DNA from: Mobula hypostoma
Taxonomy: Eukaryota
Reading direction: 5' to 3'
Length of the DNA: 64,000 nucleotides
Assembly: GCF_963921235.1 (NCBI RefSeq)
Contig: NC_086108.1
Span: 46,502,001-46,566,000 of the forward strand
The notes beneath the pieces are model-generated. The model searched no databases. It had not been told where the DNA came from and was given only the letters and a program-made list of their open reading frames with translations. This document shows positions 12,310 through 19,352 of this stretch, piece after piece. The position numbers were made by a program, and so were the translations under genes. Position 1 is the stretch's first letter; each line of letters starts with the position of its first letter.

Positions 12310-12630
12310 TGTCAGGCCTGCACAGGCAAGCAGCTCCCAGTCTCCACCCAGCTAAAAGGAACCACCTGCCACTCGTTTCCAACTCATCACCTGCAGCCTA
12401 TTTAAACCCAGCTTCATCCACAGCACTTGTTCACTCTTCAAACCAGCCAGCCTCAACTAGTTGCTCCGAGTCTTCAGTAACCTTGTTGCCTGCAGTGTTT
12501 AATATATGTTCTCTCTGATGTTGTGGTCCTCGTGGCTTGTTATTTTTGCGGTCTATTATTAAAGTGACCTTCCATCGCTGATTGATCTTCGATGCCCTGC
12601 TTTTGGGTCAAGCCTCTACATTCCCTGACA
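12310..12630 (+). repeat. 5' LTR of the Gypsy element
   Basis: TG..CA ends, TATA-like tatttaaa, attaaa signal. Homologous to 19353-19572. Confidence 0.9.
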
Positions 12631-14395
12631 GGATGAGTGATCCCAACAGAACATGTTCACCTTAAGGAATTTGTCTGTCCACATGATTCAGAAGCAGTGG
12701 GAAACCTCTGACCATCTGCTCACCACTCTCTTTCAACTCTCCGTCACCATACAGCAACCCTGCAACAGTCAGCCTCCCCCATCTGTGCCCAGACTCCAGT
12801 ATCCAAATGCTCTGACAGATCCCCAACCCGTTGGCTGCAGCCTTCCGTCCCAATGCACCTTCTATTTCGAGCTTGAGCCTTCTCGGTATGTAATGGACCG
12901 AGCCCAGATTGCCTTCATCATCTCTCTTGACTGGGCAAGCTCTGAAATGGGCCACTTCTAAATGGGACAATAAACCCACCAGCTGCAATAACTGAGAATT
13001 TTCTGCTGAGGAGCACTGGGTTTTCACCCATCCACAATGGAAGTGGGGCAGTGGACTGGATAGATTGCCTTTGTCAATGTTCATGCTCAGTGTGGGATTA
13101 CACCGTGGAATTCAGGACACTTGGGCAGAGAGCAGCTGGAATGCAGAAGTGCTGCTGGCCCAGTACCATTACAGCCTCTACGATTGCTTCAAAGACAAGC
13201 TGTCTTCCCAGGAGACACCCACCAACCTCGAAATCCTCATCACTCTGGCCCTCTGTGTTGACAACTGTCTTATGGAATGACCTAGATTACCAGCAAGCAT
13301 TCCAGTTCTGTTCCCACTACCATTTCAGTTTGCAGGACCCGCTTCATCAATGCCTCCAGATCCCATGCAGTTAAGGAGAGCTCTCTTAACCACCCCCTCC
13401 CTCCACAAGAGCATGAGCGTTGGTAGAGAAACAACGTGTATTTACTGCAGATCTGCTGATCACTCGTGCATCAAATACCCACTGCACCCGGAAAAACAAC
13501 ATCACCAGATAGAGATGAGGGGCTTTCTATCTGGTAAGCTCCATCCAGCTTCTCATTCCAGCACCATAACCCAACTCACTCTCTTTACCCTCCCCGACAC
13601 CCCGAGGACTCTACACAAACAGGAGATTCTGGTGGATTCTGGGGCACAGGTAACTTTCTGGACCGGACGCTGTGTGTAGCTTGGACACCCTATCAAGCCC
13701 ACTTCTTGTCCCTTCTGCATCACGGCCATTGGCAGATGCCCCTGGGGTCTGAGATGGTCAGAGTGCACCCACAGCCTGTGCACATGCGCATCAGAGAGTG
13801 CTCTGAGTCCATCCAATTCCTCCTGATTGACTCACCCAACACTTCTCCCACCTTGGGTTAGCCCCGGCTCTGCTCTCACGAACTTCACCTAGCCTGGTCA
13901 TCTAGCTCACTGCGTAGGATTCTACCTGCAACTTCAGTTGACCTCACTCTGTTAAATCCATGGAGATGGAGGAAGCCTTCAACCTCACCAAACTCCCAAG
14001 GAACACCAATGCCTTCAATAAAGGTCCTCACAGACCACAACTGCACAATCAACCTCCTCCTGGGCACCTTCCTTCCCCAAAGCCGTCTGTTCTCCCTTTC
14101 TCCTCAAGATTCAAACCATGAATGACTACATTCTGAGGTAATGCCGCATGGCTTCATTTGACCATCCCAGTTCACAGCCAGTACAGGATTCTTTGTCAAA
14201 AAGAAATATGAGGGTCTCCACCCCAGCATTGGCTACCAAGGACTTAACTAAATCCACTAAGAACCGTTACCCTCACCCCTCAATAGATAGTGCATTCGAA
14301 ACGCTTGTAGAGTACAGATCTTCACCAAACTGATCAATGGAGTTCATACAACCTGATCTGCCTCCACCAGGGGGGATGAGTGGAAGGCGGTGTAT

Positions 14396-14566
14396 GGGGT
14401 GTCAGGGAGGGGTAGCTTCTCTGGTGGGGGAACATGTTGCGTCCTTTTCAGGGTGGTTTGCCCACCTTTGGTCCCCACCTGGCACTCCCCGTAGCTGTTT
14501 GCATGCGACAGCGGCCACACCCCGGGCAACGGCTTCGACAAGCCGGCTAAACCAGCTGAGGGTAGC
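14396..14566 (+). ncRNA. Candidate HDV-like self-cleaving ribozyme at the RTE 5' end (P2 looks damaged)
   Basis: P1 GGGGUGU (14396-14402) pairs with ACACCCC (14517-14523). Then GGG, a P4 hairpin CGGCUU-cgac-AAGCCG, and J4/2 GCUAA (C14547). P3 UGGC/GCCA is possible. Confidence 0.6.
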
Positions 14567-17500
14567 CGACGGGTCTCAAACCCTCGGTGAGATAGGGAGT
14601 TGTCTATCCCAGCATGTGATGACAGACTCCGGCGGATTGAGCAGACAAGACCAATGGAAGGTCCAACGATCAAGAAGGCGGTCTCTGCGAGCGTGTTGGA
14701 ACGTGTAAGAGTACGACAAGACACAGAAGATGTCCTGGTCATCCACTGCACTTAGTCCCATCTTCAGCCATCTCGACCCTTGTTTTCCCAGTGGATCCAG
14801 ATGGGAATTGGGAAGAGAGAGTGAGGCTGACGCTGCACAACTCTCCCTCACTTAAATCCAAATCAAGCACTAGTCTCCACACCATCATCATCAGCACCAC
14901 CCTCAACCTTTGAAGTCCTGTGCCGATAGGGGAGCGACGAAGCAGCAGGTGTGGATACACTGGAAGCTGTAGTCACGGACCTGCACATAGGCGGCTCGGG
15001 TCTAATGGTGGCTTTTCGCTGACTGAAGCAGCAGTGAAACCTGGCGTCCAGCTGGGCGACTGAGCAGCCCTCTTCAGGAATGCACTGCTCATCTCTGTAG
15101 AATGAGGAAGGGGCTAGAAAAGGTGCCCTGAACATTGCCTGCCTCATTACACCCTGGCCAGTTTACCACGGCTGGCGGGGATTCTATCTTGGCAGTCGAA
15201 CAAACACAACAAAAGGCAAAGTGACACCGCTCACCACAGGCACTTGGAAGGTGCGCACACTATTGGACACCCCACAGCAAACAGACGGGAGAGAAGAACA
15301 GCCTTAGTTGCCAGAGAGCTTGCAAGATACAACGTTGACATTGCAGCCCTGAGTGAGTCTCGTCTTGCCAACGAAGGTCAGCTGACTGAAACTGGAGATG
15401 AATGCACTTCCAGCGATGAGCGTCATGATGCTGGAGTTGGATTCGCCGTCAGGAGTCACCTTGTTCGGAAATTTGCCAGTCTCTCCAAGGGTGTGAACGA
15501 CCGGCTCATGACACTACAGCTTCCGCTACAGAACAGAAGTCAAGCCACCCTGATCAGCGACTATGCCCCCACAATGACTAACCCGGATGAGACGAAAGAC
15601 AGGTTCCATGAAGAGCTAGACGCCCTACTATCAGCAGTGAGCAGCACCGACAAGCTGATCTTGCTCTGCGACTTCAATGCAAGAGTAGGGTGCGACTCTG
15701 CAGCCTGGCAGGGAGTCATTGGGAGTCATGGAGTGGGCAAATATAACAGTAACGGTCTACTCTTACTGAAGATCTGTACAGCACACGACCTCCTCATCAC
15801 CAACATAACTTTCTGCCTACCTACCCATAAGAAGTCCTCCTGGATGCACCCCCACTCTAAGCATTGGCACCTTATCGACTATGCCATTGTTAGGAGAAAA
15901 GACAGGCAGGATATCAGCTTGACCAAGACCATGTGTAGTGCTGACTGCTGGAAGATCACAGGCTCTGTCTCCAAAATGAAGCTCCGCATCAGACCCAAGA
16001 GGCGACCACAAGGAAGCAAGGCTATGAAAAGAATTAATGTGGCCAGGCTGAAGAACCCAGCATAGCTTCAGCACTAGCTGAAGACTTAGAAACCAAGCTT
16101 GCTGACCTACACCTTGCAGGCAGCGCTGTGGGCAACTGGGAACGCTTCAGGGATGCTGTCCATTCATCAGCACTGAAGATGCTAGGGCTCTCTACCCGCA
16201 AGCAGCATGACTGGTTCGATGAGAATGATGAGGAGACACAGGCTCTACTTGTTGAAAAGCACCGCCTTCATCGTGCCCATCAGAACGACCCATCATCAGC
16301 TGCCAAGATAAACGCCTTTACCAGTGCTCGCAGGACAGTCCAGAATAAACTGCGTAAAATGCAAGATACCTGGCTGAGCACCAAGGCAGATTAAATACAG
16401 GGATATGCTGGCAGAAATGACTTGAAACGATTCTATGAAGCCATCAACACTCTCTACGGACCTCAGTCTCTCGGGAGCTCCCCCCTCCTGAATATAGATG
16501 GTACAACACTCATTACAGAGAAGCTCAGATCCTACAGAGATGGGCTGAACACTTTGAAGCCGTCCTCAACCGACCTTCATCTATTAACGATGAGGCGATA
16601 GACAGGATTCTCCAGGTCGACATCAACAGCGCCATGGATGACCCACCGGTAGTAGCTGAAGTCACAAAAGCTGTCACCCAACTATCCAGTGGCAAAGCCC
16701 CAGGGGCAGACGCCATACCAGTAGAAATCTACAAAGCCGGTGGTCCCATACTTAGAGAAGCTCACCGAGTTGTTCCAGTCTTTTTGGAAGCAAAGATCCA
16801 TTCCTCAGGAACTTAAAGATGCATCCATTGTACACCTCTACAAGAGGAAGGGCAATCGACAAGTATGTGACAACCACTGAGGAATCTCGCTGCTCTCCAT
16901 CGCAGGAAAAACCCTTGCATGAGTCCTGTTAAATTGTCTGGTCACTCATCTGGAGCTGGGCCTGCTGCCAGAGTCACAGTGTGGCTTTCACAAAGGTCGT
17001 GGGATTATTGACATGACTTTTGATCACGCGCCAACTTCAGGAGAAGTGTCAGGAGCAGAATCGCGAACTCTACGCAACTTTTGTTGACCTCACGAAAGCC
17101 TTCGACACTGTCTGCCGACAAGGCCCGTAGAGGATCATGTCAAAGTTCGGCTGCCCCGCCAAATTCATTCAGATGGTAAGTCAGTTCTATGATGGCCAGA
17201 GTGCTGGGCGGCGGAGAATCCTCTGAGGCATACCCAGTCTCCAATGGCATCAAACAGGGCTGTGAGCTCGCACCCACACTGTTCAGCATGATGTTTTCTG
17301 CCATGTTGAATGATGCCTTCCAGGACAGTGATGCTGGAATCAGCCTCAAGTACGGAGTGGATGGGAAGCCCTTCAACCTGAGGAGACTTCAAGCTATTCC
17401 CAAAGTGAAGGAGACTGTTCTGTTACCAAAGTGAAGGAGACTGTTCTGAGAGACTTCCTCTTTGCCGATGACTGCGCCCTGTATGCTGGCTCAGAGCAAG

Positions 17501-18450
17501 AGATACAAGTCAATATGGACAAACTCTCCGCGGCTTGTGACAACTTTGGACTCACCATCAACATCAAGAAGACCGAAGTCATGCACCAGCCTGCCCCTCA
17601 TGCACAGTACACAGAACCGAAAATCACAATCAGAACTACAGGCAGTGGACCAGTTTACTTACCTTGGCAGCACCCTCTCACGCGCAGTGACTATTGATAC
17701 AGAAGTTAACTGCAGAATAGCAAAGGCAAGTTGTGCTATCGGTAGACTGCGCTCCACTGTATGGGAAGGTCGAGGAATCAGTCCAACAACAAAACTGAAG
17801 GTCTACAGAGCCGTGGTACTCACTACCCTCCTGTATGCCTGTGAAATGTGGACTGTGTATCGACGGCATGCAAGACAGCGCAACCATTTCCACATGACTG
17901 GTCTTTGCAGAATATTAGACATCAGATGGCAAGACAAAGTACCAGACACTGAAGTTCTCTCTAGAGCAAGTCTACCATCAGTCCACACACTGCTGATGAG
18001 AGCACAGACCAGCTGGGCAGGTCATGTCATCCGCATGCCGGACGAGCGCATACCCAAGCAGCTCCGTTTTGGGGAACTCTCTGCTGGAAGACGCTCGCAT
18101 GGAGGGCAGAAGAAATGTTACAAACACACTAAAGGCCTCCCTGAAGTCGCTTGACGTAGACACAACCTCCTGGGAAACGCTGGCACAAAACCGCCCTACC
18201 CGGCGCAGCCTCATCCACAAGGGCTGTCAAGCTTACGAAGCAAGGCGCATTGCTGAAACACAACATAAGCGCGAGCTGCGCAAGTCCAGAGCCACCAGCA
18301 CAACAACTGCAGTGCCTACACATGTCTGCCCGACATCTGCCAGGACATTCCTTACCCGAATTGGCCTGACCAGTTCATCTTCAGACACACCGCATCCAGT
18401 CTCAAAGTGACTAATGGTGTCGAGGTCTTCATCGACGACGATGGACGAAC
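14396..18450 (+). mobile_element. Full-length RTE-clade LINE (long 5' UTR, APE endonuclease, RT, C-terminal zinc finger remnant), frameshifted
   Basis: Motifs GTWKVRTLLD, ELARYNVDIAALSESR, CDFNARVG, WHLIDY, KQGCELAPTLFS, FLFADDCAL, HVCPT..TRIGL. Candidate TSD tgtat/tggat. Removing the element restores Gypsy RT GDEWKAVYTAPTGYYEYL in frame. 23-bp tandem duplication near 17399-17447. Confidence 0.93.
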
Positions 18451-19352
18451 TGGATACAGCACCCACTGGCTATTATGAATACTTGCTTTTTGGACTTTCC
18501 AACAGTCTAGCCATTTTTCAAACCTTCATTATCAAGATCCAAGGCATGCTACACAGGTATGTGGCTGTCTACCACAACAATATCCTCATTTTCTCCAAGG
18601 GCCCCCGAGACCACGTCTGTCACGTCCGTTCAGTCCTTCAGCACCTTCTCGAAAACCAACAGTACTGCAAGTTAAAAGGATAACAGTCCACACCCCGGTC
18701 ATTTCCTTCCTGGAGTAGATTCTTTCACCCCAAGGCGTAGACCCAGGGAAAGTGTACGCCATCATTGAATGGTCCCAACCATGCCCCCTCAAAGTGTTCC
18801 TTGGGCTTCTCCAACTTGTACTGCTGACTCATCCAGGCCAACTGTTGGTGACATCCAGCCAGACTACTCTGACCTGGGGGTCACGCCTTGCCATCCACCC
18901 AAGATTGAAGCCGCCCCTACCCCCCCCTCCCACCCCTGCCATTCACTGGCTCCTGCTCTGGTTCATGATTACCCATATTCCCTTCAAAATTTCCCATTGC
19001 ATCAATCCTGTTATCTGCCATCTCCATTTGCCACCATCCCTCAGGTTCACAATGTACCTTCCTTGTGTCTTGCCTCAAGCCCGTTGTCCATGGATCACTC
19101 AACCTACCTGAGCCCGTACCTCCAGGACCTCGGATGGTGGAAGGTGGTCCAACATACATGGTTCACTGGTTGATAGATTCACTTCATCAAGGATGGGGTT
19201 TACAGTACCTGGTCAATTGGAAAGGGTACAGCCCAGAGGAGAGATCTTGGGTGACATCTAGTTTCATCTTGGATCCAATACTCAGAGGAATTCCACCAGA
19301 TTGATCAGGCACACCATGGTCTGTCAGGTGCCAGCTGTATGAGAGGCAATCC

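What the first reader, a model, noticed from the sequence alone, without database searches (positions are those of the whole stretch)
14396..14566. HDV-like ribozyme at the exact 5' end of the RTE retrotransposon
Seen: the element boundary is fixed independently, because rejoining 14395 to 18456 restores the Gypsy RT frame W-K-A-V-Y-T-A-P-T-G-Y-Y-E-Y-L. The first seven bases, GGGGUGU, pair perfectly with ACACCCC 121 nt downstream. That strand is followed by GGG, a 6-bp P4 hairpin and GCUAA, the J4/2 motif of the antigenomic HDV ribozyme (candidate catalytic C14547). Known: HDV-like ribozymes process the 5' ends of R2, RTE and other LINEs, cleaving just 5' of P1. Inference: the predicted cleavage site coincides with the insertion junction. 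The fold would have a long J1/2 and an extra hairpin (GCUGU..ACAGC, 14494-14512) inside L3, which is unusual. No good P2 5' partner is visible, so this copy may be damaged.
Basis: partly seen in the sequence, partly recalled or inferred. Interest (0 to 1): 0.7.

Follow-up and report, generated by a model that had tools for sequence, protein, structure and literature searches.

The report
Broken copy of retrotransposon self-cutting RNA
This is the damaged front end of a jumping gene whose family begins with a hepatitis-delta-type RNA fold, predicted to cut itself free and carrying an unusual extra hairpin; the family starts nine bases earlier than first proposed, and this copy has lost parts of two essential helices.

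Summary
The motifs are real, but the boundary and the P1 pairing are misplaced by 9 nt. The first GGGGUGU is P1; the one at 14396 closes the long J1/2 stem. Intact copies form the full HDV-like double pseudoknot with C14547 in J4/2, supported by compensatory changes in sister families and distant relatives. The hairpin inside L3 is family-wide and occurs in three distant elements; their nearest relatives have a 7-nt L3. This copy is likely dead: a private 18-nt deletion (1 copy versus 1805 intact) removes the 5' strands of P2 and P3, and P1 and P2 carry further mismatches. The restored host frame is coincidence; the 5' junction is a 5-nt microhomology. RTE 5' ribozymes are published; I found no L3 hairpin in print but could not read the two key surveys. 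The scan noted this family before, here and in other genomes. Cleavage is untested.

The parts
14387..14393 (+). P1 5' strand position (family GGGGUGU, here GCGGUGU, C-C mismatch at pair 2). Predicted cut site of the family lies just 5' of 14387. 14389-14393 is a microhomology shared by host and element.
   Evidence: C14388 agrees with 9 of 12 host copies and 4 of 77 family copies; 14389-14393 agree with 68-75 of 77 family and 4-10 of 12 host copies
14394..14396 (+). Short AUG linker between P1 and the J1/2 domain
14397..14487 (+). Structured J1/2 domain; closing stem (P1.2) 14397-14406 with 14478-14487 uses the second GGGUGU
   Evidence: 2 of 6 scored pairs change on both sides
14485..14488 (+). 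Site of an 18-nt deletion private to this copy (at a CTC microhomology); removes P2 5' strand and P3 5' strand
14486..14493 (+). Canonical part of L3 (UCCCCGUA); C14487-C14488 are the P1.1 5' side
14494..14512 (+). Extra hairpin inside L3 (5-6 bp), family-wide
   Evidence: at least 4 of 5 pairs in 99 of 100 and 18 of 18 copies; part of its 5' arm lay in the selecting pattern for the 100
14514..14516 (+). P3 3' strand (partner deleted here)
14517..14523 (+). P1 3' strand
14524..14525 (+). P1.1 3' side (GG)
14530..14545 (+). P4 hairpin, 6 bp
   Evidence: 5 of 6 pairs change on both sides
14546..14550 (+). J4/2 with candidate catalytic C14547
   Evidence: G and C invariant in 16 of 16 rows; catalytic role inferred from HDV
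14553..14562 (+). P2 3' strand (10-11 bp in the family); G to C change at 14556 in this copy, partner deleted
14387..18450 (+). Full-length but decayed RTE-type non-LTR element (endonuclease + reverse transcriptase, frame broken), no target-site duplication
14875..14885 (+). 5' UTR stretch complementary to 18414-18424 in the 3' UTR; short derivatives are joined here
   Evidence: seen in the 3 printed ~560-nt copies

Best explanation
The region is the broken 5' end of an RTE-type retrotransposon whose family begins with a complete HDV-like double-pseudoknot fold that likely cuts itself just before the family's first base (14387 equivalent), while this copy, lacking 18 bases of the core, likely cannot cut. 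Shown: the fold's helices and their compensatory changes, the family start, the deletion. Inferred: the element is transcribed inside host RNAs; P1 and a long P2 are pinched together by the structured J1/2 domain as in the mosquito drz-Agam-2 ribozyme; C14547 acts in catalysis; cleavage leaves an uncapped 5' end that is copied to its last base, so that new insertions start at G1 with a few extra or missing bases and with microhomology joins. The L3 hairpin would project from the 3' side of L3 and be tolerated. Short two-ended derivatives keep the same head and are predicted to use the long element's protein.
For: Start positions 55 of 100 at nt 1 versus 4 of 100 at nt 9-11. Duplications: 27 of 33 copies with both ends have one of 7 nt or more, 19 of 27 end at 0 to +5, none at +9 (control 69 of 1056 mismatched pairs); in 50 new copies, 43 with both ends, 26 with 8 nt or more, 16 end at 0 to +5, 6 at -2 to -4, one at +8, none at +9 (control 20 of 1806). 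A hand-written HDV descriptor finds one full fold in intact copy L102 with P1 at nt 1 and none in the window copy; it hits 8 of 52 upstream regions of related elements, 0 of 52 reverse complements and 0 of 50 ORF regions. 92.8% of cells paired and 11 of 38 pairs changed on both sides against a shuffle mean of 4.0, 0 of 500 shuffles as high. P1 and P3 covary in wider relatives. Nested fold with P1 from nt 1 is 12 kcal/mol better than from nt 10. Published activity of ribozymes at RTE 5' ends (PMC3774820 section 17; PMC6765202 passages) and of the P1.2 plus long P2 design (PMC4908430 part 1).
Against: No cleavage data. L3 is 28 nt rather than 7-8. In the 16-row alignment P3 never varies and P1.1 shows no compensatory change; rows are related and some are misregistered, so the shuffle count is not a probability. 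One of the 8 descriptor hits (L202) looks spurious and three (L166, L194, L211) are one element. A profile made only from short-L3 cores finds the L102 core weakly (E 0.025) and misses the window copy. No Rfam HDV-type model scores. A fixed internal transcription start at nt 1 would give the same 5' ends. Only 32 of 100 and 4 of 18 copies keep all core helices, as expected for old copies.
Confidence: 0.82

Rival explanations
1. The fold is kept for another job (translation start, protein binding, promoter) and the L3 hairpin has switched cleavage off; the 5' end is set by an internal promoter.
For: L3 is far outside the canonical length; sister families read UCCAAGU in L3 and some CCAA in J4/2; HDV-like folds are proposed to help translation (PMC6765202 passages).
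Against: Catalytic C, G-C of J4/2, U-C and G of L3 are invariant in 16 of 16 aligned rows; the 5' end matches the P1 start to the base; hairpin-bearing elements spread to thousands of copies.
Confidence: 0.1
2. Different register: P3 closes right after an 8-nt L3 (GGC with GCU) and the insert lies between P3 and P1, or the RNA toggles between the two pairings as an off/on switch.
For: The alternative 3-bp pairing is possible in families A, B1, B2 and in L154, L164; short-L3 relative L152 uses GCU as its P3 3' strand.
Against: Subfamily B3 (3 copies) changes the hairpin's first pair to A-U, which breaks the alternative P3, and L192 weakens it to two G-U pairs; the hairpin register keeps P3 stacked directly on P1.
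Confidence: 0.05
3. One reading: P1 starts at 14396 and the cut site equals an insertion junction at 14395/14396.
For: The second GGGGUGU pairs perfectly with the P1 3' strand; 4 of 100 copies start at nt 9-11; duplicated P1 sequences can both be used in R2 (PMC3774820 section 17).
Against: 14394-95 match the family, not the host; no duplication ends at +9; energy favours nt 1; the second repeat covaries with the J1/2 closing stem.
Confidence: 0.03

Closest known systems
drz-Agam-2-type large HDV-like ribozyme (PMC4908430, part 1 of 4 read; its link to RTE elements is recalled)
   Same: 7-bp P1, short linkers, stable J1/2 domain with P1.2, P2 extended to 10-11 bp, J4/2 C
   Different: 19-nt hairpin inside L3; G-C rather than G-U at the first P1 pair in family A (G-U as usual state is recalled; sister family B1 has G-U); activity not measured
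HDV-like ribozymes at 5' ends of RTE, R2, R4, L1Tc elements (PMC3774820 sections 9 part 2, 16, 17; PMC6765202 passages; Ruminski 2011 not held, seen only as cited)
   Same: Predicted cut site at the element's first base; variable 5' junctions with microhomology and extra bases
   Different: Vertebrate, non-site-specific element; no L3 stem described in the parts read
Bipartite ORF-absent non-autonomous RTE LINEs such as Bov-A, RTESINE, WALLSI3 (PMC5786205 passages and section 23)
   Same: Most family copies are 530-710 nt, made of the 5' UTR and the 3' end, and keep the 5' end
   Different: The window copy itself is full length; the paper only suggests ribozymes at such heads

Membership tests
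HDV-like ribozyme (family, intact copies) | Nested double pseudoknot P1, P1.1, P2, P3, P4 in HDV order | tested here: met
   P1.1 rests on conservation, not covariation
HDV-like ribozyme (family, intact copies) | Catalytic C and conserved A in J4/2; conserved U, C, G in L3 | tested here: met
   invariant or nearly invariant columns; positions taken by analogy with HDV (recalled numbering)
HDV-like ribozyme (family, intact copies) | Short L3 of 7-8 nt | tested here: not met
   26-28 nt with a hairpin in own families and L192, L154, L164; 7 nt in L152, L153, L166, L173, L177, L201, L212. Filed as a variant for this reason
HDV-like ribozyme (family, intact copies) | P1 start coincides with the RNA 5' end | tested here: met
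   DNA-level only: copy starts and duplications
HDV-like ribozyme (family, intact copies) | Mg2+-dependent self-cleavage lost on C-to-U | not testable with these tools
   needs a bench assay; public runs were contigs only
HDV-like ribozyme (this window copy) | P2 and P3 can form | tested here: not met
   18-nt deletion; P2 0 of 8, P3 1 of 3, P1 6 of 7 mapped pairs; descriptor finds nothing
Rfam HDV-type models | Score to a curated model | tested here: inconclusive
   no hit, but none for canonical-core relatives either
RTE-clade non-LTR retrotransposon | Single ORF with AP endonuclease and reverse transcriptase, short-repeat 3' tail | tested here: met
   Pfam PF03372 and PF00078 in fragments; relatives are single proteins of about 1060 aa with both domains; AAC-type tails
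RTE-clade non-LTR retrotransposon | Placement within RTE on an RT tree with named reference elements | not tested
   trees held unnamed relatives only; the RTE label rests on architecture and recall

The most novel reading that the evidence does not exclude
An active sub-class of HDV-like ribozymes carries a hairpin inside the catalytic loop L3 that serves as a handle or switch, and this ribozyme head moves between RTE lineages as an exchangeable module: hairpin-bearing heads sit on endonucleases that do not form one clade (p-AU 0.0002). Fixed-length L3 searches would have missed thousands of such ribozymes per vertebrate genome, each intact one able to cut host transcripts that read through it.
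Probability: 0.25. Interest if true: 0.7.

Novelty: new variant of a known kind. Interest (0 to 1): 0.38.

Why it matters
The general biology is published. What this adds: a base-exact match between predicted cut site and insertion start in a vertebrate element with thousands of copies; natural pairs of near-identical ribozyme scaffolds with and without a hairpin in L3 (L153 versus L192 or L102), a ready test of how much the HDV core tolerates; and a reminder that about a third of sampled copies still keep all core helices and could cut host pre-mRNAs. The copy in the window is of little consequence itself.

Tried and rejected
Rfam scans: no HDV-type hit, uninformative because canonical relatives also failed. 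Plain folding of the window copy: z -0.50, cannot show pseudoknots. Viral contig scan: nothing. Sequencing runs: no RNA holder on record; four runs laid were contigs only, so no start, strand or expression could be read; they only hinted at sister families, later confirmed. The many deletions around P2 in the first hit list looked like a hot spot but were selection by the deleted query; copies picked on a downstream region keep the stretch in 18 of 18. Rescue of the window copy by the upstream CACCUGG repeat was considered and rejected: it competes with P1.2 and P3, shifts L3 by 2 nt and meets the 14556 mismatch (sequence inspection; descriptor negative). Dropped rows: 7 of 40 and 7 of 50 lacked one end; 7 of 19 host copies had weak anchors; 11 of 29 long copies did not reach the 5' end; 24 of 76 metagenomic loci were not scanned by the descriptor because the match began far inside the ORF. 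Literature searches for an L3 insertion gave no such report; Ruminski 2011 and Webb and Luptak 2011 were not held.

Full report
Observation. The element downstream has fragments of an AP endonuclease and a reverse transcriptase; its closest named relatives are shark and turtle proteins at 72-76% identity over the endonuclease, and many unnamed single-ORF proteins of about 1060 aa. It ends at 18450. I call it RTE-type from this architecture; a tree with named references was not made.

The 5' boundary is 9 nt further upstream. An internal 24-mer of the intact form has 1805 exact matches, control 0. In the first 100 listed on contig C1, alignment to the head starts at nt 1 (14387 equivalent) in 55, at nt 1-5 in 77, at nt 9-11 in 4. 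Target-site duplications end at or just inside nt 1: 19 of 27 and, in 50 new copies, 16 of 26, with none at +9; mismatched-pair controls gave 69 of 1056 and 20 of 1806. Long copies picked on 14900-15300 behave alike: 18 of 29 reach the 5' end.

The host junction. Each flank was compared separately with uninterrupted copies of the host LTR element (12 of 19 usable). Host agreement is high up to 14386 and from about 18456. A14394 and T14395 match 0 of 12 host copies and 72 and 77 of 77 family copies; C14388 matches 9 of 12 host and 4 of 77 family copies; 14389-14393 match both. Microhomology joins with small deletions are what is described for R2 elements that cleave at their own 5' end (PMC3774820 section 17).

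The family fold. In intact copies P1 is nt 1-7 with the 14517-23 equivalent; an AUG linker leads into a structured J1/2 domain whose closing stem uses the second GGGUGU; then P2 (10-11 bp), P3, L3, P1.1, P4 and J4/2. My descriptor finds exactly this in L102. The nested part is 12 kcal/mol more stable with P1 from nt 1 than from nt 10. Short linkers, P1.2 and a long P2 are the features that speed up drz-Agam-2-1 (PMC4908430 part 1).

Comparative support. Related elements from metagenome contigs (76 loci) gave descriptor hits in 8 of 52 upstream regions, 0 of 52 reverse complements, 0 of 50 ORF regions; one hit looks spurious and three are one element. A profile search added L152, L154, L164, L173, L177, L185. 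A second pattern found sister families in the own genome (1297 matches). On 16 natural sequences 92.8% of cells pair, and 11 of 38 pairs change on both sides (shuffle mean 4.0; slid controls 38-50% paired); P4 covaries in 5 of 6 pairs, the L3 hairpin in 1 of 4 with 2 more one-sided, P3 is invariant, P1.1 has no compensatory change. The wider set shows four different P3 pairings and five different P1 pairings. The rows are related and two are misregistered at the 5' end, so the shuffle count is not a probability.

The L3 hairpin. It is present in all four own families and in L192, L154, L164, with varied loop and stem; L153 and L152 have the same scaffold with a 7-nt L3. On the endonuclease tree the 5 hairpin-bearing rows do not form a clade against 8 short-L3 rows (p-AU 0.0002; labels were set before the first tree). 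That fits head exchange or repeated loss; metagenomic contigs could also be chimeric. From memory, the 3' side of L3 is extruded and tolerates deletion in HDV, which makes an insertion there plausible; this was not checked in a paper.

This copy. An 18-nt deletion at 14485-14488 removes the P2 and P3 5' strands; its junction 20-mer occurs once in the genome, and 18 of 18 long copies keep the stretch. 14556 breaks P2, 14388 breaks P1. P1 mismatches were linked to loss of activity in other HDV-like ribozymes (PMC3774820 section 9 part 2). It is very likely inactive. Core helices are complete in 32 of 100 selected and 4 of 18 long copies.

Short derivatives. None of 40 copies fetched to 6 kb was full length; of 43 further copies with both ends, 36 are 533-566 nt and 7 are 672-710 nt. 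They are two-ended non-autonomous elements of the kind described in PMC5786205.

What is known. Ribozymes at RTE 5' ends are published (PMC6765202 passages; PMC3774820; PMC5786205). Five searches showed no report of an L3 stem, but the two surveys most likely to hold one were not available, and no supplements were read. PMC4870747 was seen as passages only. The scan's own notes list 126 similar findings in at least 34 genomes, two shown from this genome; these are unchecked AI notes, read after my analysis, and not evidence.

Verdict. A real but broken member of a retrotransposon family whose head is an HDV-like fold with a non-canonical L3; boundary corrected to 14387; cleavage predicted, not shown. 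New variant of a known kind, modest interest.

Noticed in passing
window 14875-14885 and 18414-18424: The 5' UTR and 3' UTR hold an 11-nt complementary pair; the ~560-nt derivatives are joined at this stem (3 printed copies), suggesting end-to-end pairing of the RNA and template skipping.
   Followed up: partly
L051-L080, L101-L120, L258-L307, base before G1: T precedes G1 in 44 of 60 copies that start at nt 1-2: biased untemplated addition or target preference.
   Followed up: partly
L228-L257: Sister families B1, B2, B3 (1297 pattern matches) share the scaffold but read UCCAAGU in L3, and B2 has CCAA in J4/2; older and more decayed.
   Followed up: partly
L102, L192, L166, L201 5' ends: The P1 5' sequence is repeated in tandem in several unrelated heads (offsets 9, 9, 5 and multiple), recalling the P1-duplication model for R2.
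   Followed up: no
L075, L068/L069, L258/L259: Copies lying close together or inverted next to one another (L075 is preceded by the reverse complement of its own P4 region).
   Followed up: no
window 18451-18455: Five bases between the element's 3' end and the host sequence match neither the usual AAC-type tail nor, at 18453-55, the host.
   Followed up: no
window about 12600-14393 and 18456-19300: Decayed LTR-type (Gypsy-like) element hosting the insertion; at least 646 candidate relatives in the genome at about 76-82% identity.
   Followed up: partly
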